A DNA stretch of 64,000 nucleotides from a virus: IMG/VR virus record IMGVR_UViG_3300045988_062794; one strand, given 5' to 3'. The notes beneath the pieces are model-generated. The model ran no database searches. It saw nothing but the letters and a program-made list of their open reading frames with translations, and was not told the origin of the DNA. Position numbers and translations under genes: made by a program. Shown one piece after another: positions 4,966 to 32,972 of this stretch (its first letter is position 1; every line of letters begins with the position of its first letter).

Positions 4966-4969
4966 ATTA

Positions 4970-5215
4970 TTAATGATTAAACAATTTCTTTATATTTCTC
5001 CAAACTCTCTTATAGAGAGGCATTGTAGCTTGTTTCAATTTTTCTACTGCTGCCTTCTCTGCAGCTTCCTGCTCCATTAGAGTAACCTCTATATCTTTAA
5101 GGGCTTTATAGTCATATGCGGGTCCCATATTAACAATCGTATCATACTGATTGTATTTAACTTTAACTGATTTTGCCTTACTAGTAGTTTTAGTAGCTTT
5201 CTTTTCCTTAGTCAT
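4970..5215 (-). CDS. hypothetical protein (81 aa, basic N-terminus)
   Basis: ORF tightly packed upstream of terL. Confidence 0.45.
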   Translation of the reverse strand: MTKEKKATKTTSKAKSVKVKYNQYDTIVNMGPAYDYKALKDIEVTLMEQEAAEKAAVEKLKQATMPLYKRVWRNIKKLFNH

Positions 5216-10396: not shown

Positions 10397-10539
10397 AAAA
10401 ATAGAAATCTTCCATATACTATTACTTTAGATATTAGTAGTATAATCCAGAGTAAGGAGTAATGGTTGATATTACTTACTATCTCTATATATACTCTCCT
10501 ATCTCTCTACTCTAGACATAGAGAGTAACGAAATATATA

Positions 10540-10716
10540 TTAATTTTGTTCTATTTCTATCAAATATTTGTGCAATATGTCACTCTTATTATCTCCTTTA
10601 TTAGCGTATTTTACTACTTTATACTTAGCGTTTCTACCAATAACAGGCCAATATTCTGTTGTATAATACTCTTCTATTACTTCTTTTTCTCTATTTGATT
10701 TACAATTTTTTAACAT
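10540..10716 (-). CDS. hypothetical protein (58 aa, below ORF-track cutoff)
   Basis: Hand translation: MLKNCKSNREKEVIEEYYTTEYWPVIGRNAKYKVVKYANKGDNKSDILHKYLIEIEQN. It fills an otherwise empty gap in the late block. Confidence 0.35.
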   Translation of the reverse strand: MLKNCKSNREKEVIEEYYTTEYWPVIGRNAKYKVVKYANKGDNKSDILHKYLIEIEQN

Positions 10717-10736
10717 CTTTTAACTATATTTAACTA

Positions 10737-10967
10737 TTATACAAAACTCATACTATCATGAGTACCATTTGTGTTCTTACAAAAGAGTTCACAGCCTGTC
10801 ATATATTCTGATATAAGCTCCCCTGGTGTATCTGTTTCTTCTATATAAATCTCTAAGATATCACCATTTTCATATACTTTTTGATATGTTTTATAGCTCC
10901 AATCTCCTACTTTATTATCTTTTACTTTGGTAAAACCGTGCTGTTCTAACCACTCTGAGCGTGTCAT
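10737..10967 (-). CDS. hypothetical protein (76 aa), first gene of the minus-strand block
   Basis: ORF bordering the divergent control region. Confidence 0.5.
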   Translation of the reverse strand: MTRSEWLEQHGFTKVKDNKVGDWSYKTYQKVYENGDILEIYIEETDTPGELISEYMTGCELFCKNTNGTHDSMSFV

Positions 10968-11183
10968 TTTAACATTATTTAATTATTTTTAACATATAGC
11001 TTCTAACGTACACATAAAATTTTTGTTAAAAATATGTAAAAAATAAAAATTGAGCGCAAGGAGAAATTTGAGAGAGCGGGAAGTAGTATATAATTGCCCT
11101 CCCCCTATCATAAGTGAAAGGAAAGTCCCCCGGGGGTTCTCAATGCATCAAGCTGTGTTTTGGGCTTGTTATTTGCTTTAATA

Positions 11184-11218
11184 ATGCATCAAATTGGTTA
11201 ACTTATTTGTTTATTGTG
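11184..11218 (+). promoter_or_regulatory. bipartite motif copy C: ATGCATCAA-N20-ATTGTG (candidate early promoter)
   Basis: Exact 20-nt spacing shared with the copies at 11751 and 12332. Lies 79 nt upstream of the 11297 ATG. Confidence 0.45.
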
Positions 11219-11296
11219 ATTATTAACGTTTCAGCCACAGCGGAAGGCGGTTGTGGTGTAGTACTACTACTGAAGGGTAGATAGCCGAGAAGAAAG

Positions 11297-11704
11297 ATGA
11301 AGTGCGCAATCATGGAGTTGGAAGCAAAACAAGCAAGTAATGGTAACTGGTATGTGAACATCACAGCACAGCCAGAGAACGATCCATTTGCTGAAGAGTT
11401 ACACTACCGTATGTGGTGTAGCGAAGCGTTAGCTGAGAAGCTAACAGCTAAGAAACCAGCGTCTATCGAACTAAGACGAGTTAGTGTTAAGGTTGAGCAG
11501 TTCCAACGGGTTGATGATGACGGTACAATCAAGCCACAAGTGTTCAACACCTTGTCTGTGGTGGTACGTCAGTTCCAGAATGCAGATGTAGATGACCCAA
11601 CAGTCATGGCTGAGAAGCTGCGTTCATCTCTGTTGAAGGACGGTAAGATCTGTGATGTCCAGACAGATGACTTTGACGGTGCTACTGGTGACATTCCTGA
11701 GTGA
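11297..11704 (+). CDS. early protein, paralog of 12534..13154
   Basis: 135 aa. Shares MKCxI...NGNxY...DxF...YxM...AxxLxAKxP...VxVK...GDIPE with the 206-aa ORF. G+C-richer than its surroundings. Confidence 0.65.
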   Translation: MKCAIMELEAKQASNGNWYVNITAQPENDPFAEELHYRMWCSEALAEKLTAKKPASIELRRVSVKVEQFQRVDDDGTIKPQVFNTLSVVVRQFQNADVDDPTVMAEKLRSSLLKDGKICDVQTDDFDGATGDIPE

Positions 11705-11708
11705 GAGT

Positions 11709-11741
11709 AAGGGCTTCGGCCCTTCTCTTCATTCTTTTGTT
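11709..11741 (+). terminator. intrinsic terminator
   Basis: AAGGGC-TTCG-GCCCTT hairpin (11709-11724) followed by a T-rich run. Confidence 0.65.
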
Positions 11742-11750
11742 TTCTACGAC

Positions 11751-11785
11751 ATGCATCAAGTCCTTTTCCCTCTTAGCAGATTGTG
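11751..11785 (+). promoter_or_regulatory. bipartite motif copy A: ATGCATCAA-N20-ATTGTG
   Basis: Begins 27 nt after the terminator hairpin. About 50 nt are alignable with copy B. Confidence 0.45.
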
Positions 11786-12099
11786 AGGAGTATATTATAA
11801 AGTGTATATTTCTCATCATATTTATATTTATTTATATTCTTATGCCTAAACAGGTGATATTAGCCAGTATCATCGCTTTAAGTAAGAGTGTAGGCTAGTA
11901 GAGAACGGCATCTCTACGAAATCAGTAGCTATTGGTTAAACCTCTTTAGAAAAGGACTACTGAGCTATTATCCTTTGATAGCAAGCTTGATACCGAGTGA
12001 CTCTCGGTTGCATGTCGTAAAGACCAGGTAGGTGGTATAGTCAACTGCATCTAGACTACCTGGTTTACTTTTGATTATTAATCAATAAAATTATATATT

Positions 12100-12282
12100 A
12101 TGATAGCAGTGGTAAGATGCTATAAGCACATAACTCCGGTAATTGTTACAGTATTTGAAAAAAACGATGAACAAACTCAGAAAGATGCTCTAGAAATGGC
12201 TACTATCTTAAGTAGAAGAGACAACTGTGAGTATAGAGTAATGGTAGAGTATTGGGTTGCGTTTGGTACTCCAGCAAAGTAA
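12100..12282 (+). CDS. hypothetical early protein (60 aa)
   Basis: ORF preceded by TACTTTTG (12066-12073), which fits the Bacteroidota -7 pattern TAnnTTTG. Confidence 0.45.
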   Translation: MIAVVRCYKHITPVIVTVFEKNDEQTQKDALEMATILSRRDNCEYRVMVEYWVAFGTPAK

Positions 12283-12290
12283 GCTATTTA

Positions 12291-12330
12291 TAAGGTGTTG
12301 GTTTTGCCTTCACCTTATTTACTTTCTTAT
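12291..12330 (+). terminator. hairpin terminator candidate
   Basis: TAAGGTG (12291-12297) pairs with CACCTTA (12311-12317) around a 13-nt loop, followed by a T-rich tail. Confidence 0.45.
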
Positions 12331-12331
12331 A

Positions 12332-12366
12332 ATGCACCAAGTTAATTACCCTTTTAGCATATTGTG
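12332..12366 (+). promoter_or_regulatory. bipartite motif copy B: ATGCACCAA-N20-ATTGTG
   Basis: Same spacing as copies A and C. Begins 15 nt after the preceding hairpin. Confidence 0.45.
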
Positions 12367-12533
12367 CGAGATATAGTATACTTATAAGCGTACGAGAGTA
12401 TTAGAGTATGAGGATTAGATAATCCTCACCTTTCATCTTTTTCATCTCTTTCTCTTATTACTCTTTACGCCTATATATAATATATAGCGTATCATAGACA
12501 ATTAAACAATTAAACAACTAAATTATCAAAATT

Positions 12534-13154
12534 ATGAAATGTGACATTTTAGCTCATGAATTTAACACAGCTGAGAACGGTAATAGATACTGTAAGCTGG
12601 AAGTACGTCAATCTGGTGACGAATTCGGTAGAACATTCAATTATGTAATGTTTATTACTGATGCAATGGAAGCAGCTTTAGAAGCTAAGTTTCCGAAGTT
12701 TATCTACCTACAAGAGGTACGTGTAAAGGCACCTAAACCCTTTTATAGAGTTTGGGAGACTGATGGACCTGGTCATGCTCAGGGTGAGTTTGTTACTCGG
12801 CCTAATAGAGAAGATCCTGATAATCCTATAATGATTGTATTTGAGGATATCAAAGTTATTATTAGAACTATGCCTGATGGTTCACCCGCAAGAGGTGAAG
12901 ATGCGCAGAAATTAGCTGAATCAAGCTATTATAGAGGTATTAGTATGAATACTATTGTACCTATAGATGCGTATGATGATGGTGATACTGATAACAATAT
13001 TGGTGCTACAAATACAGGAGCTGATCCATTTGCTGGGGCATCTACAGCTGGTGATGGTGATATACCTGAAACCGCTACAGATCCAGCAGAACAACCTACG
13101 CAACAACCCGCTGGTAGACCGACTGGTAGACCTGGCGTAACAATTAGACGTTAA
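12534..13154 (+). CDS. early protein, paralog of 11297..11704, with Asp/Gly/Pro-rich C-terminal extension
   Basis: 206 aa. The N-terminal ~100 aa align with the 135-aa paralog, and the GDIPE motif is shared. Confidence 0.65.
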   Translation: MKCDILAHEFNTAENGNRYCKLEVRQSGDEFGRTFNYVMFITDAMEAALEAKFPKFIYLQEVRVKAPKPFYRVWETDGPGHAQGEFVTRPNREDPDNPIMIVFEDIKVIIRTMPDGSPARGEDAQKLAESSYYRGISMNTIVPIDAYDDGDTDNNIGATNTGADPFAGASTAGDGDIPETATDPAEQPTQQPAGRPTGRPGVTIRR

Positions 13155-13168
13155 TAATCATGAGAATG

Positions 13169-13199
13169 GCTGGTCTTAGTGATCAGCTGTTCTTTTTTT
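13169..13199 (+). terminator. intrinsic terminator
   Basis: GCTGGTC-TTAGT-GATCAGC (one G-U pair) followed by TGTTCTTTTTTT. Confidence 0.6.
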
Positions 13200-13231
13200 C
13201 AATTTACAAACGATAATCTGTATATTGTAAT

Positions 13232-13432
13232 ATGAGACAGTTAAATTCATTAGAAGAAAATGCTTTAAAGATTTCAAAATACTCTACAATAGCATTTGTT
13301 ATATTCTTCTTTTTCTTTATAGGCTTTGTTGCAGAGTCTGTACGCCCTTTATACATATTGGGTGGACTAATGCTTATAGTATGGAAATACATAGCATACG
13401 TTGCTATAAAAGATCTATTACATATTAATTAG
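13232..13432 (+). CDS. small membrane protein (66 aa, two hydrophobic segments)
   Basis: ORF with hydrophobic stretches IAFVIFFFFFIGFV and ILGGLMLIVW. Confidence 0.4.
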   Translation: MRQLNSLEENALKISKYSTIAFVIFFFFFIGFVAESVRPLYILGGLMLIVWKYIAYVAIKDLLHIN

Positions 13433-13434
13433 TC

Positions 13435-13659
13435 ATGAGTAAGAAGAAATATCACAAGCAAAATTGCAATAGCTCAGTACGTGCTGTTGTACATTTAGGT
13501 AATGAAATTATTTCATTAATAGGGACACATGCCTTTGAATGGTCTATTGTAAAACAGACTAAGAATAAGGTAAACATTCTCACATTCTCTAATAGAGAAA
13601 TGGCTGTTAAGGATTTTGAAAAATACAAGAACTTAGAGCATGAAAGCGGAAAGAGGTAG
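13435..13659 (+). CDS. hypothetical protein (74 aa)
   Basis: ORF packed against its neighbour. Confidence 0.45.
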   Translation: MSKKKYHKQNCNSSVRAVVHLGNEIISLIGTHAFEWSIVKQTKNKVNILTFSNREMAVKDFEKYKNLEHESGKR

Positions 13660-16499: not shown

Positions 16500-16793
16500 C
16501 AGTTTACAACTTCATTATTTCTTCAGTGGCTGTACTTGCATGCGAATGTAGGTGCAGTCGTCCTCAGAAAATGACAAACCTGTGGGGCGTAAGTAACTAA
16601 GTAGTAATACTATAATGTCAGTATGTAGTATTACACTGAAACTGACTGTTATGATCGTGCGGACGTAAAAATCAGGTAGATGATAAGAATTGTACTGACA
16701 ATACAATTCTGCTGTATCTTAAAACAAGTTTTGATAGTCAAATTTTCCTAAACCAATCCTCGTTATTAGGTAAAATTTCTTTTTGTTTACGTA

Positions 16794-17437: not shown

Positions 17438-17689
17438 CTCGCCAGTTATAACTCTTTTATTAATAACTCTAAAGTTAACGCTTATGAGTATGGTGGTTAT
17501 CCCCAAGCATGTTAAACCTAACGCCCTAAACTCACTAAAATGTATATGAAGATATATACTACGAGTTGTGTATTTATATACAAATGACATAGTAAAAGTT
17601 CTATGTTAATTATAAGAAGGAAAGGAGGTAAGATAGGAATAAGGAATAAGAATACTATCTCATGCTTTTTACTTTAGAAACTTATTTGT

Positions 17690-19591: not shown

Positions 19592-19657
19592 GATAATATA
19601 GTTCAATGGTAGAATAATGCTTATGCATAGATCTGGGTTCAAATCCCAGTATTATCA
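19592..19657 (+). ncRNA. tRNA-like element 2 (66 nt), anticodon arm replaced by 4-bp stem + TTAT loop
   Basis: GATAATA TA GTTC-AATGGTA-GAAT A ATGC-TTAT-GCAT AGAT CTGGG-TTCAAAT-CCCAG TATTATC A. Twin of 29965..30030. Confidence 0.7.
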
Positions 19658-21485: not shown

Positions 21486-22046
21486 ATGAAGAGAGAAGAT
21501 GAAGACAATCTAATTAGGCAGGCTAAACTTGGCGATCAGAAAGCTTTTAGTACGCTTTACGACCGTCACAAGCCATTAATTCGATACATTATCTTTGATA
21601 TTGTAAAGAATGATGATGTAGCAGATGATCTCCTATCTGTTACATTTACTAAGGCTTTCAGTCGTATAGACTCATATGTTAATCCTATTTCATTTGAGTT
21701 ATGGTTGAAGAGTATTGCGGTCAATACCTCAATTGATTACATACGACACACTAAGAATGAGAAGCAGAATCATTATATTGATTCCGAGGATAATTACATT
21801 CAATTGCAAGATAGTGAATTGTCTGCAGAAGATATTATATCTAAGCGAGAATCTATTGATCAATTGAAAGTAGCTCTGAGTAGATTGAGGTTTAAGTACC
21901 GTAATATATTAGAATTACGGTACTTTAAAGGCCTCAGCTATGAACAACTCGCAAATGAATTAGCCGTGCCTATAGGAACTATAAAAAGTGACTTAAACAA
22001 GGCTAAAAAGAAATTACGAGAATTCTATAACAAACTTAATAACTAA
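21486..22046 (+). CDS. ECF-type sigma-70 family RNA polymerase sigma factor
   Basis: Region-2-like LGDQKAFSTLYDRHKPLIRYII...DLLSVTFTKAF and region-4 HTH LSYEQLANELAVPIGTIKSDLNKAKKKL. Confidence 0.75.
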   Translation: MKREDEDNLIRQAKLGDQKAFSTLYDRHKPLIRYIIFDIVKNDDVADDLLSVTFTKAFSRIDSYVNPISFELWLKSIAVNTSIDYIRHTKNEKQNHYIDSEDNYIQLQDSELSAEDIISKRESIDQLKVALSRLRFKYRNILELRYFKGLSYEQLANELAVPIGTIKSDLNKAKKKLREFYNKLNN

Positions 22047-22522: not shown

Positions 22523-23941
22523 ATGGGAAAGAATAAAACAGCAGCAAAGAAGGCTGCACAAGAAAAAGCAGTAGAGACTAAGCAAGGCGAAACTAAAGCC
22601 AAAGTAGAAACAAAGGTAGTAGAAACAAAGGAAAAACCTACAATTAAGGTTGATCCGAAACCGGCTCCTTCACCAACACCAGCACCTAAAGCTGAAGAAA
22701 AACCTACCGAAGAAGGTGGTGTACAGGTTGTTTCTCCTGTTGAACAGTCCTCTGCTCAGCTATCCGCAGAAGTATTCCAGAATGAGGATTTGCGGACGCT
22801 TTTGATGAAGGATGTGCTTACTCCAGAAACTACTATTGATGCAAATCATATGGTAGAGCTGGCAAAAGTTGCAACTGAACGATTCAAAACAAAGGATCAG
22901 AAAGATCCGCGCGTAATCGCAACTAATGAAATGATTGACGATGTAACTGCGTATTGTCTTGCACTTGCAGGAATCAACATGCAGATTCATGGTAAAAAGC
23001 TTGGTTTGTCTGTACCGGTTGAAGCTACCGCAAGTTTCGTACGAACTATGGGCTTCTTCGGTGTAGCTTTGCCTGAAGGTAAAGCAATCGAGGATCCTAA
23101 GAATCCTGGTCAGATGATCTTGCCCTTTGAAGCTTCTGAAGAAGCAGTGAAAACTGTAAAGGAAGAGATCAAGATTCAGAAGAGTAAACCTACGATGGAT
23201 CCGTCATTGTGGAAGAGTGATGACGATGCTAAGAAAGCAGTTCGTTATATCATGTCTGATACCTTGACTAAGGACAATCGCTTCTTAGTTTCTATTTCAA
23301 AGGTAAGAATGTACAAGATGCTTACTTCAGCTAACGAAGACGAAAAGAAGATGTGGGAAAACTCCAGCAATGCTGTTATCCTTGAAGTTATCTTCAACAT
23401 CCTCGGTGATAGCAAGTCAACATTAATGAATGCTATCGGTGGTCAGATTTATTCCGCAGCAGCAACTCGGAAGAATCCAGTCTTAAGCCATCTTATAGCT
23501 AAGCGTAACTTCTCGCAGTTTAGTGACGAAGATATTCGTGATATCACGAAGGTATTCGTTAAATTTAAAGCTGCGGATAGCTCTAAAGACCCTCTTGAAA
23601 ACAACATTGCCTGGGTTGGCTTAACTCAAGGTAAGAAAGAGGATGCTTTACTTTATCCGAAACGTCTCAGTGACTTCGATAAGAATGTGATGAACCGTAT
23701 TGACAACTTATATCCGGACAAAGTTGGCGTACCATCTGATCCTGATTATCGTAGAAAAGCTTCAAACTTGATGATAACGATTATGAACCTGTATAAGGAG
23801 AATGATCTGCTTCCTCAGGTATCTGAAACTGATTACAAACAGGCTGTAGAAGATGCTGTTAAAGCAACTTCAGGTGAAACTGCTCCGAAAGAAGAACCCA
23901 AACCAGCCGAAGACAAAAAGGATAAAGGAGAAAAGAAATAA
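22523..23941 (+). CDS. hypothetical protein (472 aa) with K/E/P/T-rich low-complexity termini, G+C-rich coding
   Basis: Long ORF. Line 22681-22740 counted by hand is 27/60 G+C. Confidence 0.6.
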   Translation: MGKNKTAAKKAAQEKAVETKQGETKAKVETKVVETKEKPTIKVDPKPAPSPTPAPKAEEKPTEEGGVQVVSPVEQSSAQLSAEVFQNEDLRTLLMKDVLTPETTIDANHMVELAKVATERFKTKDQKDPRVIATNEMIDDVTAYCLALAGINMQIHGKKLGLSVPVEATASFVRTMGFFGVALPEGKAIEDPKNPGQMILPFEASEEAVKTVKEEIKIQKSKPTMDPSLWKSDDDAKKAVRYIMSDTLTKDNRFLVSISKVRMYKMLTSANEDEKKMWENSSNAVILEVIFNILGDSKSTLMNAIGGQIYSAAATRKNPVLSHLIAKRNFSQFSDEDIRDITKVFVKFKAADSSKDPLENNIAWVGLTQGKKEDALLYPKRLSDFDKNVMNRIDNLYPDKVGVPSDPDYRRKASNLMITIMNLYKENDLLPQVSETDYKQAVEDAVKATSGETAPKEEPKPAEDKKDKGEKK

Positions 23942-23957
23942 CTCCTAAATCAAAAGG

Positions 23958-24350
23958 ATGAGCCGTTTAACAGATTTTCTTTGGTGCGTATTGTTCGCTT
24001 TTGCAGCGGTTATTATTAGCATCAAATTGAGCCCACAAAGGGTAGAAGCTGTTGAGGTTAAACCTCATTACGAGCTTACAATTCCTAAGGTCGAGCCTAA
24101 GTCTTTTAACTTAGAGCTTGACCTCTCTAAGGGAACAGCGAGAGTAGAAAGTGACGCAGGAATCAGTAACGCTAACGTTACAGTAAATCACCCTGCACCA
24201 CAAGTAATTAACAAACCTGCAAAGGTTAAAATTAAGAAAGTATATGAAACAAAAACTGAGGTGTTGTCGAAGGTCGTGATGTTTAAAATGCCTACCCCAC
24301 GATTGATTCACACAACAACACCTGAGTATCCTACAAGGGTAGTGAAGTAA
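23958..24350 (+). CDS. membrane-anchored hypothetical protein (130 aa)
   Basis: ORF with N-terminal hydrophobic FLWCVLFAFAAVIISI. Confidence 0.5.
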   Translation: MSRLTDFLWCVLFAFAAVIISIKLSPQRVEAVEVKPHYELTIPKVEPKSFNLELDLSKGTARVESDAGISNANVTVNHPAPQVINKPAKVKIKKVYETKTEVLSKVVMFKMPTPRLIHTTTPEYPTRVVK

Positions 24351-26644
24351 TTAACATTGTGCTTACTGTAGAATGGCACCAGGGAAAACGAGTCTACCCC
24401 TGTAGTAAGAAGATAGATAGTGGTATTGTAGCTGATACACTTAAAAAGCAATAAAATCAGCGTATATAAATTACGATAAATCTGATCAATTTATGGTTTG
24501 TATAGACAAGTAATACAGAATACGAGAATATGATAACAGCTAACACTGTGATTCAAAAGGTAGTATAATAACTTGCTGTGGATTTATTACTTTATCCATG
24601 AAGAATCAGCAAGAAAATGGGTAACGGGTATAACCCATAAAGCTCGAGAACCGTCTGGTGGAGCGATTACAACACGGCACGTAGGTCAGCAGACACGAAG
24701 GCAAAGTATACAAATGGGGTACAAATCCTTAAGTAAGTAGAAATGGCAATTCTACTGAATCCCCAATAGAGTCTGTAGGTACTATCAAGTACGGCATCAC
24801 AGAAGGACGAAAAGGGTTAATTATCGTTAGAATTCCAAACTAATGATAGCCGTTTAGACTGACTAACGTCTTCGATGGGTCCAAACTATCGTTAAAAATA
24901 GCTACTTCTAGTGTTCTACTCTACTGTTATTACTGCTTTGTATTACAGTAATAAAGATCTTGACAACATAACATATGGTATAGTTATGGATGAGTATGTG
25001 AAAGGAAGGATTCAAACCAAGAAAATTAATAATCGAAACTAAAAGCTGAGTGGCTATGATCCATACAAAGTTAAAGAGGTAACGGACTTTAATAGCGTAT
25101 GACAGATTATCCGGAGCAGGTGCCAAACCTGTGCTTGAGAAAGCTTATTAGAATGTTCACTTAGCCTTGCAAACTAAGTTAAATAGTTCTTTTAAGGGGG
25201 TATTCCAGGTGCTAGGTCTAGATTATGTGGGAGAGATTACCACGTCTTTGCGAAATCAAGGATTAAGAAAGGTATAAGGTTTGAAGAACAGTGACCGAGT
25301 TTTGTGCTTACATTATTTAATGAGAGTTATGTCACTATAAGTCATGGAAACTAAGCACACAGTGGTAAAAGTACTGAGAACTACTACCAAACAACAGAGG
25401 TGCAGTAGCGATGCACGTTGTACGCAATAAAAAAGGAATCCTACCGCCTGCGGTGTTTTAAAGGTGTAGGTAAGTTTAGTTAAAGCTTTCTTTAATAGAT
25501 ATAACGAAAGTGGGGCTAATGTATAGTCAATGGGCTAAATTCAAGTCTGTTAATCCAGAGAAATGTAAATGTTACGATGTTTACCTGAATCCAACGATTC
25601 ATCACTGGCTCGAGAGTTAACGAGACTCTTAAATAAAAGCGTGGATAACATGTCTAACTAACGTAGGTCCAAAAACCGAATAATAAATCTGTGGAAGTCC
25701 TCGCTAAGGAAACTGACTGCGACCACAGCTTGGCGAATGCGATTGCTTAGTAGTATCAGGGTATAATGCGCAACATTATATGTCCGAGAGAAAGCGTCTC
25801 ATTGAAGCTTATAGACCTTTAAGAGTGAACCTAATAGGGAAACTATACTTATAGACCTGTCATAAGCGAGAGTAGATGAGAAGAGGTGAAAGTCCTCAAT
25901 CTTCAACCAAGTAAAATAAATAAAATCCTAGTCATGGTTACGTTGGCATCCCTATACTTAGTAATAAGTATTATATGGCGTAAGAAGTAGGTATTAGTGA
26001 ATAACTATATGAATCCTATAAGTTATTACAAATAACAAAGAATGATGAAACTTACTTCATTCACTTCGCAGTTTTAGTAACGTTCTGAAAAACGACCGGA
26101 CATAACTACTTGCCCGATAGAGAGTTTTATTTTGTTGCCACATAAAATAATTATTAGAGGTCAATCTCTGGATAATCTAAAAGTTAGGCAGTTGTACGCT
26201 GTTTTATGTGAGTGCAGTTGGTCCTGAGACACCAGGAGAACCTTGGCAAAATATTACGGATCCTCTATGATAACGATTGTAGAGTATTTCACACATATTG
26301 ACTGAACTAAGAGAATCCTTCGAAGAGTCTCATTAGCTCTGGTCATAAAGCGATTTGATAGTTCCAAAGTAAGATAAATAAGTAATTTTGTAGTATCTGT
26401 CTCATATTATAAAAGGATATAGCAATAGCATAATATCAAGAAAGTTTATCTCGCTTCTAAAACAAATTAAAGTAAAAACAGTTTCTTTTCGTATTTCTAT
26501 CTCAGTATCTCTTGAATGAGACACGACCGTGGTTTTAACCTATCTGATATAAGATGATGATAAATCGTGCATAAAAACAAAGAGAAGAATACGGAGCACC
26601 AATTAAAATTATTATTAACAAACTTATCAAAAGGAGAAAATAAA
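24351..26644 (+). other. 2.3-kb ORF-free, G+C-enriched, hairpin-dense region; candidate large structured non-coding RNA locus (strand inferred from context only)
   Basis: The track has no plus-strand ORF of 60 codons or more and only one 72-codon minus ORF. TAA, TAG and TGA all recur in every frame I read. Hand-counted lines 24601-24660 and 24661-24720 are 27/60 and 30/60 G+C, against 14-15/60 in typical gene lines. Confidence 0.5.
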
Positions 26645-27211
26645 ATGGCAAATATCAATTATAGTTTAGTAGTTGCATCTCAGTTAGGTGCACTTTTAGG
26701 AATGAATCTCATTCACATTCGTCGCAAAAATGTAGATCCCGACTATTCTAACAAAGAACGGGAAGGTAAACAACGTCTGGCAATTCCAGTATATATCTAT
26801 GGTATTGACCGTATTAAGATTAAGAAAGCTGAACTTGTAGACCTTGGTGAAGGTCAGCGGATTGTTCAGTTTAATGATGATCCGAAATTGCAGTTATCTC
26901 TGGCAAATGCAAAAGATATCACAGATGTTATTAAGAAACCAACTGTTCAGGAGGTTGCGAATGCTGTAATGGCTGAAGAAGCCAGTGCGCAACAGACGTT
27001 CTTTGTAGACGACAAAACTGCAACAGAACTTGCGGTTTCCTTTAACAACAGATCGTATAAGGAACTTTCCTCCATGATGGAGGTGCTCTCACGTCAGGCA
27101 GCCTGTTTAACGGATGCTAATGACGCTATGATGAATGCTTGCAAGTTAGAAATGGCACAGGTAGGTAAAAGTGTCGATTTCGTTCCCATTAACGTTAATG
27201 AAACAAAATAA
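26645..27211 (+). CDS. hypothetical protein (189 aa; start moved to ATG at 26645)
   Basis: AAGGAGAAAATAAA precedes the ATG. The track start at 26567 is a GTG without such a site. Confidence 0.55.
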   Translation: MANINYSLVVASQLGALLGMNLIHIRRKNVDPDYSNKEREGKQRLAIPVYIYGIDRIKIKKAELVDLGEGQRIVQFNDDPKLQLSLANAKDITDVIKKPTVQEVANAVMAEEASAQQTFFVDDKTATELAVSFNNRSYKELSSMMEVLSRQAACLTDANDAMMNACKLEMAQVGKSVDFVPINVNETK

Positions 27212-27729
27212 TGACAGAACTAAGCAAGACTTCGAAGTTAAATCTCGAACGTATTCTTGCAGATGAAGATATTCGTAGCTCTTTGCTTTATAATGGCAAA
27301 AAGCCAGGTATCTTTAAATTAAATGCAGATGGATCGCTTACACTTGGTGAAACTACATTTGGTTGGTGGAATAGTTTTATTGGGTGTCAGCAGCACTTAA
27401 GCTTTTCAGATCTGACTGTACATTTGATTAATTTCATGGCTGGTGTTGGTAAAAATCAAAATGATTTTGCTCTGAATGGATTATTCCAAGATTTCGTTAA
27501 CTTTGCACTTAAGCAGAAAGACAAGAATAGGATGGTAGATATCTTGTTAACTGCATATTTGTATGGTTATAAAGAAATACAGAAGGATGGAAGGAAACCT
27601 TCTGTGGATACAGTAATTAATTCAGTTATCAGACAACAAGATGTTCGTGATTTAGATGGTGTCGCTGTTTTAACCAGCGATGGTCCTGTATTACTAAGAA
27701 ATAACTTAGTATTCCAAAGACTTAAATAG
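27211..27729 (+). CDS. hypothetical protein (172 aa)
   Basis: ORF whose start overlaps the upstream stop (ATAATG). Confidence 0.55.
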   Translation: MTELSKTSKLNLERILADEDIRSSLLYNGKKPGIFKLNADGSLTLGETTFGWWNSFIGCQQHLSFSDLTVHLINFMAGVGKNQNDFALNGLFQDFVNFALKQKDKNRMVDILLTAYLYGYKEIQKDGRKPSVDTVINSVIRQQDVRDLDGVAVLTSDGPVLLRNNLVFQRLK

Positions 27730-27990: not shown

Positions 27991-29304
27991 ATGGTTAAAA
28001 CGTACAATAACATTGCAGAATATGCCAAAAAGTTACTAATTGAAGCAAATCCGTATATTGATGAAAAAGATATTTATATCACAGCTAATACAGATATAGC
28101 TAGTACTTTTCGAATATTAAAAGAAAAAGACTTAGCCTGTATTGACACAAGTGGTACTGAAGAAATACCATTAATACATTATACTATTTATAGTGAATCT
28201 TTAAAAGAAAAAGAGAAAGCATTTAGTAAAGAACGAGCATGTGAGCGTATTTTACAAGGTATAACTTCATATTCTTGTGAAGGGTTTACTGTAATTTCAG
28301 TTAGAGTAATTAATAAAGAAGAATCGCCAAGTGAAGAAGATTTTATACTATATGCTTTTACTGAAGCTATGTATAATCGAGCATTTGAATTAGCCTATAA
28401 AGAAGGAGAGATCAAATACACTATCGTACCAGATAATGGTATACATCGTGCAATCGTGCGTGATTCTATGATGGGAAAATATCTTGAATATATTAAAGTA
28501 GAAGATATACCGTCTAATAGTGCTATTCATCAATGCAAAGAAGATATTCTTAAAAGTGCAGAGTTCTTCTTTAAGAATATTCCATTATTCTCACGATTTG
28601 GACAGAAACCGTTACGTAAGTTCTTATTGTGTGGAGAACCTGGAACAGGTAAAACTTCTATTTGTTATGATATTGCTAAGGAATATCAGAAAGATATACC
28701 TATAGTATTTGTGACAGATTTTGATTCTTTAGCAAAACACATTTCAGAATGTGCAAAGGTTAATAAACGAACCATTGTAGTATTTGAAGATTGTGAAGTT
28801 GGCTTCCGTAATTCTGCAATTGACTCTTCAATTCTTAACTTCCTTGATGGTATTGATCGACCGAATATTCAGGATGGTGCTATAGTTATTATGACTACTA
28901 ATCATCCAGAACGTATTGAGGCTCGTATTACCAAACGTCCAGGTCGTATCGATAAGTTATTCTTTATAAACGCCTTAGAAGGACAATCAGCAATTGATGT
29001 CTTTAACCTTTACTTTGGTGAATTTATGAAGGAAAATAATTTTGATGCTACTACTCAAACAGCAAAAGAAGCTATTGAAATTATTGCTTCTGGTATGACT
29101 GGTGCTCAGATTAAGGAATTATTTAACAGTTATGTTTGTTACATGGTATCAGAAGCAAAAGATTTTAACCTCAATGACGTATTTAATACGAAAGTTGAAT
29201 TGTTTAAATCTTTTGATGACATGGACAAGAACTATAACTCTATAGAAGCTAATAAAGAGTTTGATAAAGCTCGAGGTAAAATTCTATCTGTTTTGAACAG
29301 ATAA
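27991..29304 (+). CDS. AAA+ ATPase (classic AAA clade)
   Basis: Walker A GEPGTGKT, Walker B VVFEDCE, and sensor/arginine-finger region MTTNHPERIEARITKRPGRIDKL. Confidence 0.75.
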   Translation: MVKTYNNIAEYAKKLLIEANPYIDEKDIYITANTDIASTFRILKEKDLACIDTSGTEEIPLIHYTIYSESLKEKEKAFSKERACERILQGITSYSCEGFTVISVRVINKEESPSEEDFILYAFTEAMYNRAFELAYKEGEIKYTIVPDNGIHRAIVRDSMMGKYLEYIKVEDIPSNSAIHQCKEDILKSAEFFFKNIPLFSRFGQKPLRKFLLCGEPGTGKTSICYDIAKEYQKDIPIVFVTDFDSLAKHISECAKVNKRTIVVFEDCEVGFRNSAIDSSILNFLDGIDRPNIQDGAIVIMTTNHPERIEARITKRPGRIDKLFFINALEGQSAIDVFNLYFGEFMKENNFDATTQTAKEAIEIIASGMTGAQIKELFNSYVCYMVSEAKDFNLNDVFNTKVELFKSFDDMDKNYNSIEANKEFDKARGKILSVLNR

Positions 29305-29964: not shown

Positions 29965-30030
29965 TTGTGTATAGTTTAATGGTAGAATATCTCGAAAGAG
30001 AAGATATGAGTTCGAGCCTCATTACACAAC
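29965..30030 (+). ncRNA. tRNA-like element 4 (66 nt), anticodon arm replaced by 4-bp stem + GAAA tetraloop
   Basis: TTGTGTA TA GTTT-AATGGTA-GAAT A TCTC-GAAA-GAGA AGAT ATGAG-TTCGAGC-CTCAT TACACAA C. Twin of 19592..19657. Confidence 0.7.
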
Positions 30031-31022: not shown

Positions 31023-32972
31023 ATGAAAATTAGAAACAAACCAGTATTAGTATATGATATTGAAGTATTTCAAAATATCTTTCATTGTACTGTAAAAAAT
31101 ACTGAAACTAATGAACTATTTCTATTTGAAATATCTGAACGTAAGAATCAGTTAAGTGAATTAGTTAAGTTTTTTAAACATTTTGATAATCAAGTTGGTT
31201 CATGGAACCAATCATATACAATAGATTATCAATTTGATACAGATGTAATATTCGCAGGATACAATAATATTCATTATGATAATCCTATTATAAATTATAT
31301 AATAGATTATTATAATCGCATGGTACAAAAACCTTATTGGGAAATTTGTCAGTCTATTTTTAACCTAAGTAAAGTAATACTGTCAAGTAAAGATGGTAAT
31401 GAAGATGCTTGGGAGAAATGGAAATATCAACAATGGTTTGAATCATTTGATATTCTTACTATGCTATATTCAACTCAACTACGTGTTGGCTTGAAAGAAA
31501 TGCAAGTAACAATGCAATATCCCAATGTTCAAGAATTTGTATATGATTGGAGTAGTCCTTTAAAAAAGGAATTATTTGATGAAATGATTCAATATAATAT
31601 AAATGATGTTGAATCTACTTCAGAACTACTACAAAGATGCAAGAAAGATGTTGACCTACGAATTGCAATTGAAGATGAATATGGTGTAAGAGTCTTAAGT
31701 AAAGATGGAGTAAATATCGGTATGAAAATTATTACTCAAAAGTATCTTGAAAAGACAGGGTTAACATGGAAACAGATTAAAGATCTTCGTTCTCCTATGG
31801 ACCTAATTCCACTGAAAGATGTTATACTTCCTTTTGTTAAATATGAATCTCCTATTCTTAAAAACATGCTTGAAGAAATGAAAAAACAAATAGTTCCTCC
31901 AGGTAGAAAAGGATATGAGTATAAATTTATATTTGATAATCTACGTTATTCAGTAGGAGTAGGAGGTATTCATTCAGTAAATAACCCTGAGATTATTATA
32001 CCAAAAGAAGATGAAATGCTAATAGATATAGACGTTGCTTCTCTATATCCAAGTATGCTAATACAATACAAGTTTTATCCTAAACATTTAGGACCTGAAT
32101 TTCTTGAAGTTTATTCTCAAATTAGAGAAGAACGATTAGAAGCAAAAAGAAATGGAAACAAAGTAAAGAATGAAACTTTGAAACTTGCGTTAAATGGTTT
32201 AAGTGGTAATTTACAAAACGAACATAATTTTTGTTATAGTCCTTTTGCAGTAATGCAAATCCGTATTAACGGGCAATTGCTATTACTTATGTTAGCTGAA
32301 TCATTAGTTAAATTAGGCTGTAGAATAGTGCAGGCTAATACTGATGGTTTATTTGTCTTACTTAAGAAAAACAAATACGAACAGGTTAAACAAGCTTGTA
32401 AAGCCTGGGAACAGTTAACAAAGCTTGAACTTGAAGAAGATCGTTTTGAAGCTATGTATCAATTTGCAATTAATGATTATATTGCAATTAAAGAAGGATA
32501 TAAAGCTAATAAAGATGATAAACTTATTAAAAAGAAAGGTATGTTTATTACAGATGTCTTACTTGGTAAAGGTCTTAATCCTAAGATAATACCTGAAGCA
32601 GTTATTAGATATTTTGCAAATGGAATACCTGTGAAAGATACTATAATGAACTGTAAAGACATTCGTAAATTCTTACAAGCTGAAAAAACAGGTAAACAAT
32701 GGACAGTAGAATACAACAATGAAGTACAACAGCGAATTAATCGTTTTTATGTTAGTACAAATGGTTTATATTTATGGAAATGGAAAGATAATAAAGGTAT
32801 AAAAGAGTATCAAAATATGCTTAAAGGATATGGTGTTACTATACTTAATACTCTTCCAGAAGATAAACCCATTGACCAGTATAATATTAATTACACTTAT
32901 TATATTCTACAGGCAACAAAGATTATTAACGCATTAAAGCCACAACAGCTAAGTCTATGGGGCTTTTCATAA
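31023..32972 (+). CDS. family B DNA polymerase (start moved to ATG at 31023)
   Basis: Exo I YDIEVF, Exo II NNIHYDNPII, Exo III YNINDV, motif A DVASLYPS, motif B KLALNGLSG, motif C ANTDGLFV. The track start at 30975 would overlap the tRNA-like element. Confidence 0.85.
   Translation: MKIRNKPVLVYDIEVFQNIFHCTVKNTETNELFLFEISERKNQLSELVKFFKHFDNQVGSWNQSYTIDYQFDTDVIFAGYNNIHYDNPIINYIIDYYNRMVQKPYWEICQSIFNLSKVILSSKDGNEDAWEKWKYQQWFESFDILTMLYSTQLRVGLKEMQVTMQYPNVQEFVYDWSSPLKKELFDEMIQYNINDVESTSELLQRCKKDVDLRIAIEDEYGVRVLSKDGVNIGMKIITQKYLEKTGLTWKQIKDLRSPMDLIPLKDVILPFVKYESPILKNMLEEMKKQIVPPGRKGYEYKFIFDNLRYSVGVGGIHSVNNPEIIIPKEDEMLIDIDVASLYPSMLIQYKFYPKHLGPEFLEVYSQIREERLEAKRNGNKVKNETLKLALNGLSGNLQNEHNFCYSPFAVMQIRINGQLLLLMLAESLVKLGCRIVQANTDGLFVLLKKNKYEQVKQACKAWEQLTKLELEEDRFEAMYQFAINDYIAIKEGYKANKDDKLIKKKGMFITDVLLGKGLNPKIIPEAVIRYFANGIPVKDTIMNCKDIRKFLQAEKTGKQWTVEYNNEVQQRINRFYVSTNGLYLWKWKDNKGIKEYQNMLKGYGVTILNTLPEDKPIDQYNINYTYYILQATKIINALKPQQLSLWGFS

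What the first reader, a model, noticed from the sequence alone, without database searches (positions are those of the whole stretch)
24351..26644. 2.3-kb ORF-free, G+C-enriched, hairpin-dense island: candidate giant structured RNA
Elsewhere in the window, gaps between genes are mostly well under 300 nt. Here 2294 nt lack any plus-strand ORF of 60 codons or more.

Reading three frames across 24601-24780 by hand gave interspersed TAA, TAG and TGA. A single stop-codon reassignment would therefore not open a gene.

Composition changes sharply. Lines 24601-24660 and 24661-24720 are 27/60 and 30/60 G+C. Typical gene lines (28021-28080, 31081-31140) are 15/60 and 14/60. The sequence is purine-rich in the way structured RNAs often are.

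Local helices verified by hand:
- ATGGGT/ACCCAT (24617-24622 / 24633-24638)
- AGTAGAA/TTCTACT (24736-24742 / 24750-24756)
- TTATTACTG/CAGTAATAA (24927-24935 / 24946-24954)
- GTGCA/TGCAC (25400-25404 / 25412-25416)
- AGAGT/ACTCT (25613-25617 / 25625-25629)
- GAGG/CCTC (25883-25886 / 25894-25897)

I saw no tandem or dispersed repeats, no T-arm motifs and no CRISPR-like periodicity.

The flanking genes (22523..24350 and 26645..27211) are also G+C-richer, so the whole 22.5-27.2 kb segment may be one acquired or highly expressed module.

Known large phage-associated ncRNAs such as GOLLD and ROOL are several-fold shorter. If this is one RNA, it would be exceptional. Alternatives are several smaller RNAs, a replication origin, or a heavily decayed gene.
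Basis: partly seen in the sequence, partly recalled or inferred. Interest (0 to 1): 0.9.

Follow-up and report, generated by a model that had tools for sequence, protein, structure and literature searches.

The report
Giant conserved structured RNA in crAss-like phages
A 2.2-kb gene-free stretch of this crAss-like gut phage is a conserved, heavily base-paired non-coding RNA element that sits at the same place in all five subfamilies of its phage family, matches no catalogued RNA family, and would be far larger than any known phage non-coding RNA if it is one molecule.

Summary
The ORF-free stretch is real: 24351-26563 has no stop-free run of 80 codons or more on either strand, and no single stop-codon reassignment opens it.

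It is not decayed or recoded coding DNA. Substitutions show no 3-base periodicity, and 43 of 48 indels are not multiples of 3. The stretch is also more conserved than the genes beside it.

A 1.9-2.5 kb unannotated gap fills the same syntenic slot in all five Suoliviridae subfamilies. Homology to the window's element was shown clearly in four of them. About 15 conserved sequence blocks keep the same order.

Compensatory base-pair changes are abundant:
- 128 of 548 predicted pairs in the window's lineages, against 9-21 in slid-partner controls.
- 129 of 478 in Loutivirinae.
- 14 of 17 pairs in three helices I specified by hand, tested across four subfamilies.

Rfam 15 gives no match, and I found no prior description in the literature.

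Not shown: transcription, the RNA's ends, whether it is one RNA or several, and any long-range pairing.

One conserved module copies the translation-start region of the gene that follows.

Verdict: a real, new, very large structured-RNA locus of unknown function.

The parts
24351..26644 (+). Whole intergenic element between the stop of the 130-aa gene and the ATG of the 188-aa gene. Covariation-supported structure runs from about 24359 to about 26570.
   Evidence: ORF-free on both strands. Non-coding substitution and indel pattern. 548 predicted pairs, 128 with changes on both sides, against 9-21 in slid controls.
24359..24402 (+). 5' hairpins that begin 8 nt after the upstream stop codon. This leaves no room for a promoter between the gene and the structure.
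   Evidence: Helices 24359-63/24375-79 (4 of 5 pairs compensatory) and 24380-84/24398-402. CAGGG/CCCTG changes to CGGGT/ACCCG and CGGGG/CCCCG across lineages.
24513..24571 (+). Conserved blocks ATACAGGATAC and TATGATAACTT. The second lies next to a near-copy, ATATGATAAC, 39 nt upstream.
   Evidence: Near-invariant blocks in most of the 19 lineages of four subfamilies, in conserved order. This 65-nt stretch is the only part blastn finds in Loutivirinae.
24572..24665 (+). Core domain D1. It comprises helix P_a (24572-78/24607-13) enclosing hairpin 24579-83/24594-98, hairpin P_b (24617-21/24634-38) with a conserved AGAGCGTG-type loop, and helix P_c (24641-45/24661-65) closing the invariant loop GAGAACCG-N2-3-TGGNG.
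   Evidence: Hand-specified structure tested on 20 lineages: 14 of 17 pairs changed on both sides, 94.5% of cells paired against 31-51% when slid, 0 of 500 shuffles as high. P_b alone has 4 of 5 pairs compensatory and none broken. The sequences are shown.
24771..24806 (+). Module that copies a translation-initiation region: a short hairpin (GTAC 24779-82 / GTAC 24789-92, loop TATCAA) followed by GGCATCACAGAAGG. No conserved start codon or ORF follows it.
   Evidence: The block ATCAAGAAGG is conserved in all 19 lineages. The same hairpin plus ATCA-N-AAGG sits directly before the ATG of the downstream gene in L002, L003, Loutivirinae, L132 and cr273_1. ATCA-N-AAGG precedes the ATG of at least five plus-strand ORFs in the window and never occurs on the minus strand.
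24907..25138 (+). Central conserved blocks: TAGTGTTC, TATGAAGG, TGAGTGGCTATGATCC, TGACAGATTA, and the hairpin 25116-21/25127-32 with loop GCCAA.
   Evidence: Conserved in order across four subfamilies. The hairpin covaries: GCAGG/CCTGTGC, TTAGG/CCTATAC, TTGGG/CCCTTAC. nhmmer finds homology of 24495-25340 in all sampled subfamilies, with E-values down to 8e-42.
25139..25330 (+). Lineage-specific inserted domain of about 190 nt. It is present in the window, L020 and L001 lineages and absent in the cr1_1 and cr50_1 lineages.
   Evidence: Alignment. It folds on itself with covarying helices: helices 39, 40, 42 and 46.
25400..25416 (+). Hairpin GTGCA/TGCAC.
   Evidence: 8 of 9 pairs of this helix change on both sides among the window's lineages (helix 54).
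25485..25700 (+). Most conserved stretch within Boorivirinae: AGCTTTC...CGAAAGT, GGCTAAATTCAAG, hairpin 25612-18/25624-30 (CGAGAGTTAACGAGACTCTTAAA), TAACATGT and GGAAGTCC.
   Evidence: Only 0.11-0.15 mismatches per site over 25451-26000, against 0.30-0.42 in the flanking genes. Alignment. The 23-nt motif retrieves only crAss-like contigs.
25817..25849 (+). Dispensable peripheral hairpin.
   Evidence: Deleted in the 99%-identical relative L004, between TATAGACCT direct repeats, and absent in the cr1_1 and cr50_1 lineages.
25883..25897 (+). Hairpin GAGG/CCTC with a conserved GTGAAAGT loop (block AGGTGRAARTCCT).
   Evidence: The stem covaries across four subfamilies: GAGG/CCTC, AAGG/CCTT, TAGG/CCTA, TTGG/CCAA.
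26078..26098 (+). Block GTAACGTT-loop-AAACGACC, an invariant 4-5 bp stem with a loop of variable length. In the other lineages a covarying hairpin follows it.
   Evidence: Used as a search pattern, it retrieved Loutivirinae and two distant lineages, L088/L105 and L131.
26508..26521 (+). Hairpin with an invariant hexaloop TTGAAT and a 4-bp stem that covaries freely.
   Evidence: Stems seen: TCTC/GAGA, TGCA/TGCA, TAAC/GTTA, GTAC/GTAC, GCAA/TTGC, GTCA/TGAC, GTGA/TCAC, GTTA/TAAC, CCC/GGG. 4 of 4 pairs are compensatory.
26626..27211 (+). Ribosome-binding region (ATCAAAAGGAG) and the 188-aa downstream gene of unknown function. This is the syntenic right-hand neighbour of the element.
   Evidence: Homologues flank the element in every locus.
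22523..24350 (+). Syntenic left-hand neighbours: a 472-aa protein and a 130-aa protein. The 472-aa model has a low-confidence, lysine-rich N-terminus and a helical body. The 130-aa protein has a hydrophobic N-terminus. Both are of unknown function.
   Evidence: There are 58 homologue clusters and no informative Pfam or PDB match.

Best explanation
The gap encodes a conserved, highly structured non-coding RNA of about 2.1-2.2 kb. I propose it is read rightward on the plus strand as part of the same transcription unit as the genes around it: the ECF-type sigma factor gene, then a small gene, the 472-aa gene, the 130-aa gene, the RNA, then the 188-aa and 172-aa genes.

It folds as a chain of several dozen helices grouped into local domains. 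About 15 near-invariant loop or junction sequences are kept in fixed order. I read these as sites of tertiary or protein contacts.

Most likely it acts as one long scaffold-type RNA made during infection, in the way GOLLD and ROOL are large ornate phage RNAs.

One module (24771-24806) copies the hairpin plus ATCA-N-AAGG translation-start region of the gene that follows. The most specific mechanism I can propose is competition with that mRNA leader for a shared partner, either the 30S subunit or a phage translational regulator. That would couple RNA abundance to translation of the downstream genes.

Shown: non-coding, conserved, base-paired, family-wide.
Inferred: strand, co-transcription, single molecule, scaffold role, competition mechanism.
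For: NON-CODING AND UNDER SELECTION
- Mismatches against L001 and L020 are evenly spread over the three codon phases (p = 0.76 and 0.23). In the flanking genes p ranges from 1e-7 to 3e-17, except the short 130-aa gene.
- 43 of 48 and 44 of 46 indels are not multiples of 3, whereas nearly all indels in the flanking genes are.
- Divergence is 0.25-0.27 per site, falling to 0.11-0.15 in 25451-26000, against 0.30-0.42 in the neighbouring genes.

FAMILY-WIDE
- A syntenic gap of 1.9-2.5 kb occurs in Boorivirinae, Loutivirinae, Bearivirinae, Uncouvirinae and Oafivirinae.
- It is present in all 39 loci first fetched.
- About 15 ordered blocks are conserved across four subfamilies, although the flanking proteins fall to 31-35% identity.

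STRUCTURE
- Window lineages: 128 of 548 pairs changed on both sides against 9-21 when slid, 95.8% of cells paired against 37-42%, 0 of 500 shuffles as high.
- Loutivirinae, an independent clade: 129 of 478 against 13-28.
- Hand-specified helices across four subfamilies: 14 of 17 pairs, 0 of 500 shuffles as high.
- The TTGAAT hairpin has nine or more stem variants.

STRAND
- The consensus folding energy is -646 kcal/mol on the plus strand and -584 on the minus strand.
- G-U to A-C cell counts are 433:49 for the plus-strand structure and 365:71 for the minus-strand one.
- All neighbouring genes are on the plus strand.

CONTIGUITY
- Structure starts 8 nt after the upstream stop codon and runs to the downstream leader.
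- No lineage has a gene inserted in the gap or a change in block order.

TRANSLATION-START MIMIC
-.
Against: - There is no transcription data, so neither the strand nor the ends are shown.
- The strand preference is modest.
- No helix spanning more than about 300 nt shows covariation in either clade. A column-pair scan for long-range 4-bp helices did no better than a parallel-strand control. A single global fold is therefore unproven.
- Single-sequence folding energy is no better than shuffled sequence.
- The main structures were predicted on the same alignments used to count covariation, which inflates the paired fraction. The slid-partner controls and the hand-specified test only partly offset this.
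- The 3' half is poorly alignable in Bearivirinae and Uncouvirinae. In Oafivirinae only a few blocks were found, and one frame is open for 151 codons.
- The competition mechanism rests on motif resemblance alone. In the window's own lineage the downstream leader keeps only ATCAAAAGGAG, without the hairpin.
Confidence: 0.5

Rival explanations
1. The gap holds an array of several independent smaller structured RNAs or RNA motifs, for example five to fifteen domains of 100-250 nt, each made or processed separately. They would stay together only because of shared transcription.
For: All covariation-supported helices are local, spanning no more than about 220 nt. Whole domains can be inserted or lost without affecting their neighbours: 25139-25330 is lineage-specific, and 25817-25849 is deleted in L004. 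The same window carries other separate small RNAs: Hatchet, RAGATH-9 and tRNAs.
Against: Block order and contiguity are invariant across four subfamilies, with no gene, promoter-like spacer or terminator-like spacer ever intervening. Conservation is continuous rather than arranged in islands separated by free-drifting DNA. No self-cleaving ribozyme or tRNA-like processing signal was found, even at E <= 10.
Confidence: 0.25
2. It is a cis-acting intercistronic region: a giant structured 3' UTR of the upstream genes or leader of the downstream genes. It would control mRNA stability, transcription read-through or translation of the 188-aa and 172-aa genes, rather than acting as a free RNA.
For: Structure abuts the upstream stop codon and reaches the downstream ribosome-binding region, with no recognisable promoter or terminator. 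The conserved TTGAAT hairpin and the hairpin plus ATCA-N-AAGG operator lie in the downstream leader.
Against: Two kilobases with about 15 invariant blocks is far more than any known bacterial or phage leader needs. The most conserved parts (24500-25140, 25480-25930) lie 700-2100 nt from the regulated start codon.
Confidence: 0.17
3. It is a DNA-level element, such as a replication origin, packaging site or recombination site, whose hairpins form in single-stranded DNA.
For: It lies in the replication-gene half of the genome, a few kb upstream of the AAA ATPase and DNA polymerase genes. Stem covariation alone would also fit DNA hairpins.
Against: There are no iterons, tandem repeats or AT-rich unwinding stretch, and the region is G+C-richer than average. 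The window's GC-skew turning points are at about 11-12 kb and about 42 kb, not here. G-U pairs are tolerated roughly nine times more often than A-C, and the plus strand folds better. Invariant loop sequences with freely varying stems are typical of RNA.
Confidence: 0.05
4. It is a decayed, recoded, frameshifted or intron-interrupted protein gene.
For: Delta-group crAss-like phages are known for TAG or TGA reassignment and for introns (PMC7886860). cr10_1 has a 61-aa ORF annotated inside its gap.
Against: All three stop codons are frequent in all six frames, and no single reassignment opens more than 112 codons. Substitutions show no codon periodicity, and about 90% of indels shift the frame, yet the sequence is more conserved than real genes. 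No group I or II intron model matches. The flanking genes are complete and end or start at the same points as their homologues.
Confidence: 0.02

Closest known systems
GOLLD RNA (about 800 nt; Rfam family; cryo-EM shows homo-oligomeric assemblies, PMC12286853)
   Same: A large, ornate, phage-borne non-coding RNA of unknown function. It is recognised by conservation and covariation, has many invariant loops and junctions, and sits among other phage RNA genes such as tRNAs.
   Different: No sequence or structure match, even at E <= 10. This locus is about 2.5-3 times longer. It occurs in crAss-like phages of the gut rather than in the Lactobacillales and lake-water sequences GOLLD is named for. 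A closed global fold and multimer formation are not shown here.
ROOL RNA (about 580 nt; rumen and gut phages and bacteria; forms RNA-only cages, PMC12286853)
   Same: A large structured RNA associated with gut and rumen phages, function unknown, with modular peripheral helices that come and go.
   Different: No covariance-model match. This locus is about 4 times longer. No covariation-supported long-range closing helices were found here.
OLE RNA (about 610 nt; works with membrane proteins OapA, OapB and OapC)
   Same: A large structured RNA. Here too, small hydrophobic proteins are encoded next to it: the 130-aa protein with a hydrophobic N-terminus, and a 30-aa hydrophobic ORF in sister lineages.
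   Different: No model match. OLE is found in extremophilic Firmicutes rather than phages. The neighbouring proteins are unrelated to Oap proteins, and any interaction is pure conjecture.
Ribosomal RNAs and group II introns (the only prokaryotic structured RNAs of comparable size)
   Same: Length in the kilobase range, a patchwork of invariant single-stranded blocks and covarying helices, and expansion segments that vary between lineages.
   Different: No match to rRNA or intron models. It is not inserted in a host gene, and no reverse transcriptase or maturase ORF is present. Long-range domain-closing helices with covariation, which define rRNA and intron architecture, were not found.
Short candidate structured RNAs mined from IMG/VR intergenic regions (PMC10690425)
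   Same: The same data source and the same covariation logic. Single hairpins of this locus may be among those 29-151-nt candidates.
   Different: That catalogue has no element above 151 nt and does not mention crAss-like phages. The 2-kb collinear unit is not described there.

Membership tests
GOLLD RNA (Rfam) | Match to the family covariance model (sequence plus secondary structure). | tested here: not met
   cmscan of 23800-27300 against all 4227 Rfam 15 families at E <= 10 gave only a chance-level 34-nt MS2 operator hit. No gathering-score hit falls in the region.
ROOL RNA (Rfam) | Match to the family covariance model. | tested here: not met
   Same searches, no hit.
OLE RNA | Match to the family model, and genetic linkage to oapA, oapB and oapC. 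| tested here: not met
   No model hit. The neighbouring proteins have no Pfam, PHROG or PDB family assignment.
Group I / group II self-splicing intron | Catalytic-core model match, and insertion within a host gene whose two exons together restore a complete ORF. | tested here: not met
   No intron model hit at E <= 10. The upstream 130-aa and downstream 188-aa proteins are complete and collinear with their homologues end to end.
Ribosomal RNA fragment | Match to the SSU or LSU rRNA models. | tested here: not met
   No hit.
Conserved structured non-coding RNA (operational class) | Non-coding pattern of substitutions and indels. | tested here: met
   Phase counts are flat (p = 0.76 and 0.23). 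5 of 48 and 2 of 46 indels are multiples of 3, against nearly all in the flanking genes.
Conserved structured non-coding RNA (operational class) | Compensatory base-pair changes above controls. | tested here: met
   128 pairs against 9-21 in slid controls. 129 against 13-28. 14 of 17 pairs against 1-6 for the hand-specified helices. 0 of 500 shuffles reach the observed score.
Conserved structured non-coding RNA (operational class) | Transcribed as RNA with defined 5' and 3' ends. | not testable with these tools
   No expression data are available. The consensus promoter and terminator scan is uninformative: 17 promoter-like sites against 23 expected.
Single large RNA with a global fold (as in GOLLD, ROOL or rRNA) | Long-range helices closing domains, supported by covariation. 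| tested here: inconclusive
   All predicted helices spanning more than 300 nt are invariant or unsupported. The long-range scan equals its control. The 18-nt inverted repeat 25613-30/26323-40 is not compensated in L002.
Phage replication origin | Iterons or repeats, an AT-rich unwinding element, and a GC-skew turning point. | tested here: not met
   No repeats. G+C is above the window mean. The skew turns at about 11-12 kb and about 42 kb.
Recoded protein gene (TAG or TGA reassignment, as in delta crAss-like phages) | A long ORF appears when one stop codon is read through. | tested here: not met
   The longest stretch opened by a single reassignment is 112 codons, and all three stops are frequent in every frame.

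The most novel reading that the evidence does not exclude
The whole 2.1-2.2 kb is one RNA. That would make it the largest structured non-coding RNA class known outside ribosomal RNA in bacteria and their viruses. It would also be a hallmark of the Suoliviridae, the largest group of crAss-like phages in the human gut virome by number of genomes. It would carry a built-in copy of a translation-start region, through which it captures ribosomes or a translational regulator during infection.
Probability: 0.4. Interest if true: 0.92.

Novelty: new variant of a known kind. Interest (0 to 1): 0.82.

Why it matters
Large ornate non-coding RNAs are rare. Each one found so far (OLE, GOLLD, ROOL, HEARO, raiA) has opened a line of structural or functional work.

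This locus is two to four times longer than the phage examples. It also belongs to the delta group of crAss-like phages, which a survey of human-gut viral genomes found to be the largest crAss-like group in the gut (PMC7886860). Current annotations leave it blank or place a spurious small ORF in it.

If it is one RNA, it is a new size class for phage RNA biology and an obvious cryo-EM target.

Even as a string of domains, it shows that about 2% of these genomes is devoted to conserved RNA structure that evolves more slowly than the neighbouring proteins.

The translation-start mimic gives a concrete hypothesis that can be tested. That is unusual for RNAs of this kind.

The invariant blocks also make a compact DNA marker for the family.

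Tried and rejected
- Rfam at gathering and at E <= 10: nothing in the region.
- Function of the flanking proteins. PHROGs, Pfam, two word-indexed homologue searches, one full HMM search (58 clusters), a profile search against PDB sequences and an AlphaFold2 model (pLDDT 54, too poor for fold search) gave no functional assignment.
- Long-range architecture. An all-against-all column-pair scan for 4-bp helices on a 19-lineage MAFFT alignment gave as many hits in the parallel-strand control, so I rejected it as uninformative.
  - The predicted helix 25048-58/26101-11 is not conserved in L002.
  - The 18-nt inverted repeat 25613-30/26323-40 is not compensated.
- Anchor-motif mapping by greedy fuzzy regex failed because it mis-anchored. 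nhmmer replaced it.
- RNAalifold on a cross-subfamily MAFFT alignment recovered only one helix, because indels put the other stems out of register. I therefore supplied the structure by hand.
- I considered building a covariance model but dropped it. MAFFT seed alignments put P_c and the inner hairpin out of register.
- The consensus promoter and terminator scan is at or below chance for promoters and is not suited to Bacteroidota-type promoters.
- The metagenome and genome scans found only DNA assemblies of about 100-kb phage genomes. No short transcript-like contigs turned up to define ends.
- One wasted call: a test pattern with no match.
- Literature. Seven searches and several papers read gave no description of this element. 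The library lacks most subscription-journal papers, so prior description cannot be excluded.
Full report
WHAT THE WINDOW IS

The region's closest GenBank relatives are uncultured crAss-like phages from human faeces. The best is cr10_1 (Suoliviridae, Boorivirinae), at 74% nucleotide identity over 96% of the finding. Genes from about 12 to 42 kb are on the plus strand. The neighbourhood runs as follows:
- ECF-type sigma factor (21486-22046)
- 126-aa protein
- 472-aa protein (22523-23941)
- 130-aa protein (23958-24350)
- the gap
- 188-aa protein (26645-27211)
- 172-aa protein
- AAA ATPase (27991-29304)
- DNA polymerase, further downstream

CHECKING THE OBSERVATION

Positions 24351-26563 hold no stop-free run of 80 codons or more on either strand. 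This is the longest such gap in the window, but not the only one: there are others of 302-817 nt.

TAA, TAG and TGA are all frequent in all six frames. Reading through any single stop opens at most 112 codons.

No tandem repeats or iterons are present.

Two parts of the description do not hold up:
- G+C content is only modestly raised, about 0.37 against about 0.33 for the window. It is lower than in the upstream gene, which is 0.40-0.42.
- The sequence does not fold better than dinucleotide shuffles: z = -0.30 and -1.18 for the two 1-kb halves. The upstream coding kilobase gives z = -4.4.

Finding six short helices by hand in 2.3 kb is therefore what chance would give.

IT IS NOT A GENE, DEAD OR RECODED

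I aligned the window with the L001 (cr10_1) and L020 lineages. Mismatches in the gap are spread evenly over the three phases (211/196/204 and 172/204/197; p = 0.76 and 0.23). In the 472-, 188- and 172-aa genes they pile up at third positions (p from 1e-7 to 3e-17).

Of 48 and 46 indels in the gap, only 5 and 2 are multiples of three. In the flanking genes nearly all are.

The gap is also more conserved than the genes around it: 0.25-0.27 mismatches per site, and only 0.11-0.15 over 25451-26000, against 0.30-0.42. The selection therefore acts on the nucleotide sequence itself.

HOW WIDELY IT OCCURS

All 39 related loci first retrieved have an ORF-poor gap of about 2.1-2.5 kb between homologues of the same two genes.

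The annotated genomes of all five Suoliviridae subfamilies show the same arrangement. In each, the order is sigma factor, small gene, 440-570-aa gene, 130-155-aa gene, an unannotated gap, then a gene of about 190 aa.

| Subfamily | Genomes | Gap (nt) |
|---|---|---|
| Boorivirinae | cr10_1, cr1_1, cr50_1 | 2456-2514 |
| Loutivirinae | cr52_1, cr53_1, cr4_1 | 2109-2147 |
| Bearivirinae | cr6_1 | 2080 |
| Uncouvirinae | cr115_1, cr125_1 | about 1850-2205 |
| Oafivirinae | cr273_1 (pig) | 2223 |

At 90% identity the collected elements form 16 clusters.

A multiple alignment of 19 lineages shows about 15 near-invariant blocks in the same order between 24513 and 26098:
- ATACAGGATAC
- TATGATAACTT
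- AAAATGGGAGAGCGTG
- GAGAACCG..TGG
- ATCAAGAAGG
- TAGTGTTC
- TATGAAGG
- TGAGTGGCTATGATCC
- TGACAGATTA
- GGAGCAGGTGCCAAACCTGTGC
- CACTATAA
- GGAAGTCC
- GCAAC
- AGGTGRAARTCCT
- GTAACGTT..AAACGACC

Between the blocks lie variable, indel-rich segments.

A profile search confirms homology of the 5' 850 nt in every sampled subfamily, with E-values down to 8e-42. It confirms the 25690-26050 part in Loutivirinae.

In Oafivirinae I checked only a few motifs. The GAGAACCG..TGG loop with a new flanking stem (CCAT/ATGG) and TAGTGTT are there. One frame is open for 151 codons, so that subfamily is the least secure.

The flanking proteins fall to 31-35% identity between lineages that still share 80% or more identical RNA blocks.

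The 23-nt motif CGAGAGTTAACGNNACTCTTAAA occurs only in crAss-like contigs: 36 in IMG/VR, and 48 human-gut metagenome contigs, mostly around 100 kb. One further 82-kb contig from a water-deer caecum is binned as a Lachnospiraceae MAG.

STRUCTURE

Compensatory changes are visible by eye in the alignments. Three formal counts follow.

1. Eight sequences of the window, L020 and L001 lineages, using the RNAalifold consensus of 548 pairs:
   - 95.8% of cells paired, against 37-42% when the 3' partner is slid by 1-3 columns.
   - 128 pairs changed on both sides, against 9-21.
   - Covariation score 0.261, against 0.04-0.06.
   - 0 of 500 shuffles as high.
2. Seven Loutivirinae lineages, analysed independently:
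   - 478 pairs, 129 with double changes, against 13-28 when slid.
   - 94.6% paired, against 34-42%.
   - Supported helices occur from position 10 to about 2025 of the element.
3. Three helices that I specified by hand from the sequences, on a 20-lineage alignment spanning four subfamilies. They are P_a 24572-78/24607-13, P_b 24617-21/24634-38 and P_c 24641-45/24661-65.
   - 14 of 17 pairs changed on both sides, against 1-6 when slid.
   - 94.5% paired, against 31-51%.
   - 0 of 500 shuffles as high.

Other clear cases:
- The hairpin with invariant loop TTGAAT (26508-26521) has a 4-bp stem that takes at least nine different sequences.
- The hairpins at 25116-32, 25400-16 and 25883-97.

Whole peripheral domains come and go. 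25139-25330 exists only in three lineages. The hairpin 25817-25849 is cleanly deleted in a 99%-identical relative. This behaviour is typical of expansion segments in large RNAs.

Caveat: in tests 1 and 2 the structure was predicted on the same alignment that was then counted.

WHAT IS NOT ESTABLISHED

No helix spanning more than about 300 nt shows covariation. The long-range pairs predicted by energy are invariant or fail in other lineages, and a systematic scan was no better than its control. The supported architecture is therefore a chain of local domains of up to about 220 nt. Whether these are parts of one folded molecule is open.

Strand assignment is only moderately supported:
- The plus-strand consensus energy is 62 kcal/mol better than the minus-strand one.
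- G-U to A-C cell counts are 433:49 against 365:71.
- All surrounding genes are on the plus strand.

Structure begins 8 nt after the upstream stop codon and continues to the leader of the next gene. I found no recognisable promoter or terminator. This suggests co-transcription with the flanking genes, followed or not by processing. No ribozyme or tRNA-like processing signal was found in the region.

A POSSIBLE HANDLE ON FUNCTION

The conserved block at 24771-24806 is a short hairpin with an (A/T)ATCA(A/T) loop followed by GG-ATCA-N1-3-AAGG.

The same composite motif sits immediately before the ATG of the downstream 188-aa gene in the cr1_1 and cr50_1 lineages, Loutivirinae, cr6_1 and cr273_1.

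ATCA-N-AAGG also precedes the ATG of at least five plus-strand ORFs in the window (20542, 23949, 26626, 36909, 40683). It never occurs on the minus strand.

The internal copy has no conserved start codon or ORF after it. Most lineages have TAAACACGA there instead.

So the RNA carries a mimic of a translation-initiation region. This suggests, but does not show, competition for ribosomes or for a regulator that binds that leader. In the window's own lineage the true leader has lost the hairpin and keeps only ATCAAAAGGAG.

COMPARISON WITH KNOWN SYSTEMS

In kind, this resembles the large ornate RNAs of phages and bacteria (GOLLD, ROOL, OLE). All are long, conserved, covarying, modular and of unknown function, and they lie near other RNA genes.

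It is a member of none of them. No Rfam 15 model matches, even at E <= 10. It is two to four times longer than those RNAs. Its length is in the range of rRNA and group II introns, but it matches neither and lacks their long-range helices, at least as far as I could test.

High-throughput catalogues of phage structured RNAs stop at 151 nt and do not mention crAss-like phages. The main comparative paper on these genomes does not mention the region. No other paper in the searchable library does either. The library does not cover most subscription journals.

VERDICT

The locus is a real, conserved, structured non-coding RNA locus of about 2.1-2.2 kb that is characteristic of the Suoliviridae.
- Confidence that it is a structured RNA element under selection: about 0.9.
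- Confidence that it is one RNA: about 0.4-0.5.
- Confidence in the proposed competition mechanism: about 0.15-0.2.

Noticed in passing
window 16560-16677 and 17493-17670 (+): A Hatchet self-cleaving ribozyme (85 bits, gathering score 51) and a RAGATH-9 RNA (92 bits, gathering score 75) lie about 7-8 kb upstream of the element on the same strand. This phage therefore carries several distinct structured RNAs.
   Followed up: no
window 19592-19657 and 29965-30030 (+): Rfam calls two 66-nt tRNAs (59 and 48 bits), but ARAGORN reports no tRNA anywhere in the window. Relatives have annotated tRNAs at comparable positions, for example tRNA-Val or tRNA-Ser just before the DNA polymerase gene. Anticodons, and any suppressor function, were not examined.
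   Followed up: partly
window 22900-23899 (+), inside the 472-aa gene: This coding kilobase folds much better than its dinucleotide shuffles: z = -4.4, with 0 of 20 shuffles as good. The non-coding element does not. The cause is unexplained, and only 20 shuffles were run.
   Followed up: no
L001 about 4885-4975, and the equivalent in the L002, L003 and L020 lineages; absent at window 24351: Sister lineages have a roughly 30-codon hydrophobic ORF (MKAKNSTLDKLAFVGLIIFFIMCLFFAWCI) between the 130-aa gene and the RNA. The window's lineage lacks it, so the RNA starts right after the 130-aa gene.
   Followed up: partly
L004 (99% identical to the window), equivalent to window 25817-25849: A 33-nt hairpin is precisely deleted between two TATAGACCT direct repeats. 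The same hairpin is missing in the cr1_1 and cr50_1 lineages. This is a natural experiment showing that the hairpin is dispensable.
   Followed up: partly
window 10427-13636: A cluster of further ORF-free gaps (310, 302, 817 and 482 nt) coincides with the GC-skew minimum and the switch from minus-strand to plus-strand genes at about 11-12 kb. This is a more plausible place for a replication origin or divergent promoters than the element studied here.
   Followed up: no
window 20542, 23949, 26626, 36909, 40683 (+): Plus-strand ORFs are preceded by ATCA-N1-3-AAGG(A/G), a strong Shine-Dalgarno-like context, which is unexpected if the host is a Bacteroidota species, where such sequences are generally not used. 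The host of this phage is not known, so this rests on my own knowledge of that phylum.
   Followed up: partly
L003 1-353 (cr50_1) and L184 1552-1921 (cr273_1): The GenBank annotations of relatives list a 370-500-nt tmRNA (SsrA) a few kb upstream of the sigma factor gene. At the roughly corresponding place the window has Hatchet and RAGATH-9 instead. I did not check whether those tmRNA calls are genuine.
   Followed up: no
L183 (JAGAKD010000106.1, 81.7-kb contig): The only hit in the species-representative genome collection is a contig binned in a Lachnospiraceae MAG from water-deer caecum. It is probably a mis-binned crAss-like phage genome. It shows that the element also occurs in ruminant guts.
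   Followed up: no
window 24351-24420 compared with L001, L003 and L039: The first 70 nt of the element are mosaic. L003 matches L001 here, while its 94%-identical relative L039 matches the window type. This suggests recombination between lineages inside the element.
   Followed up: no
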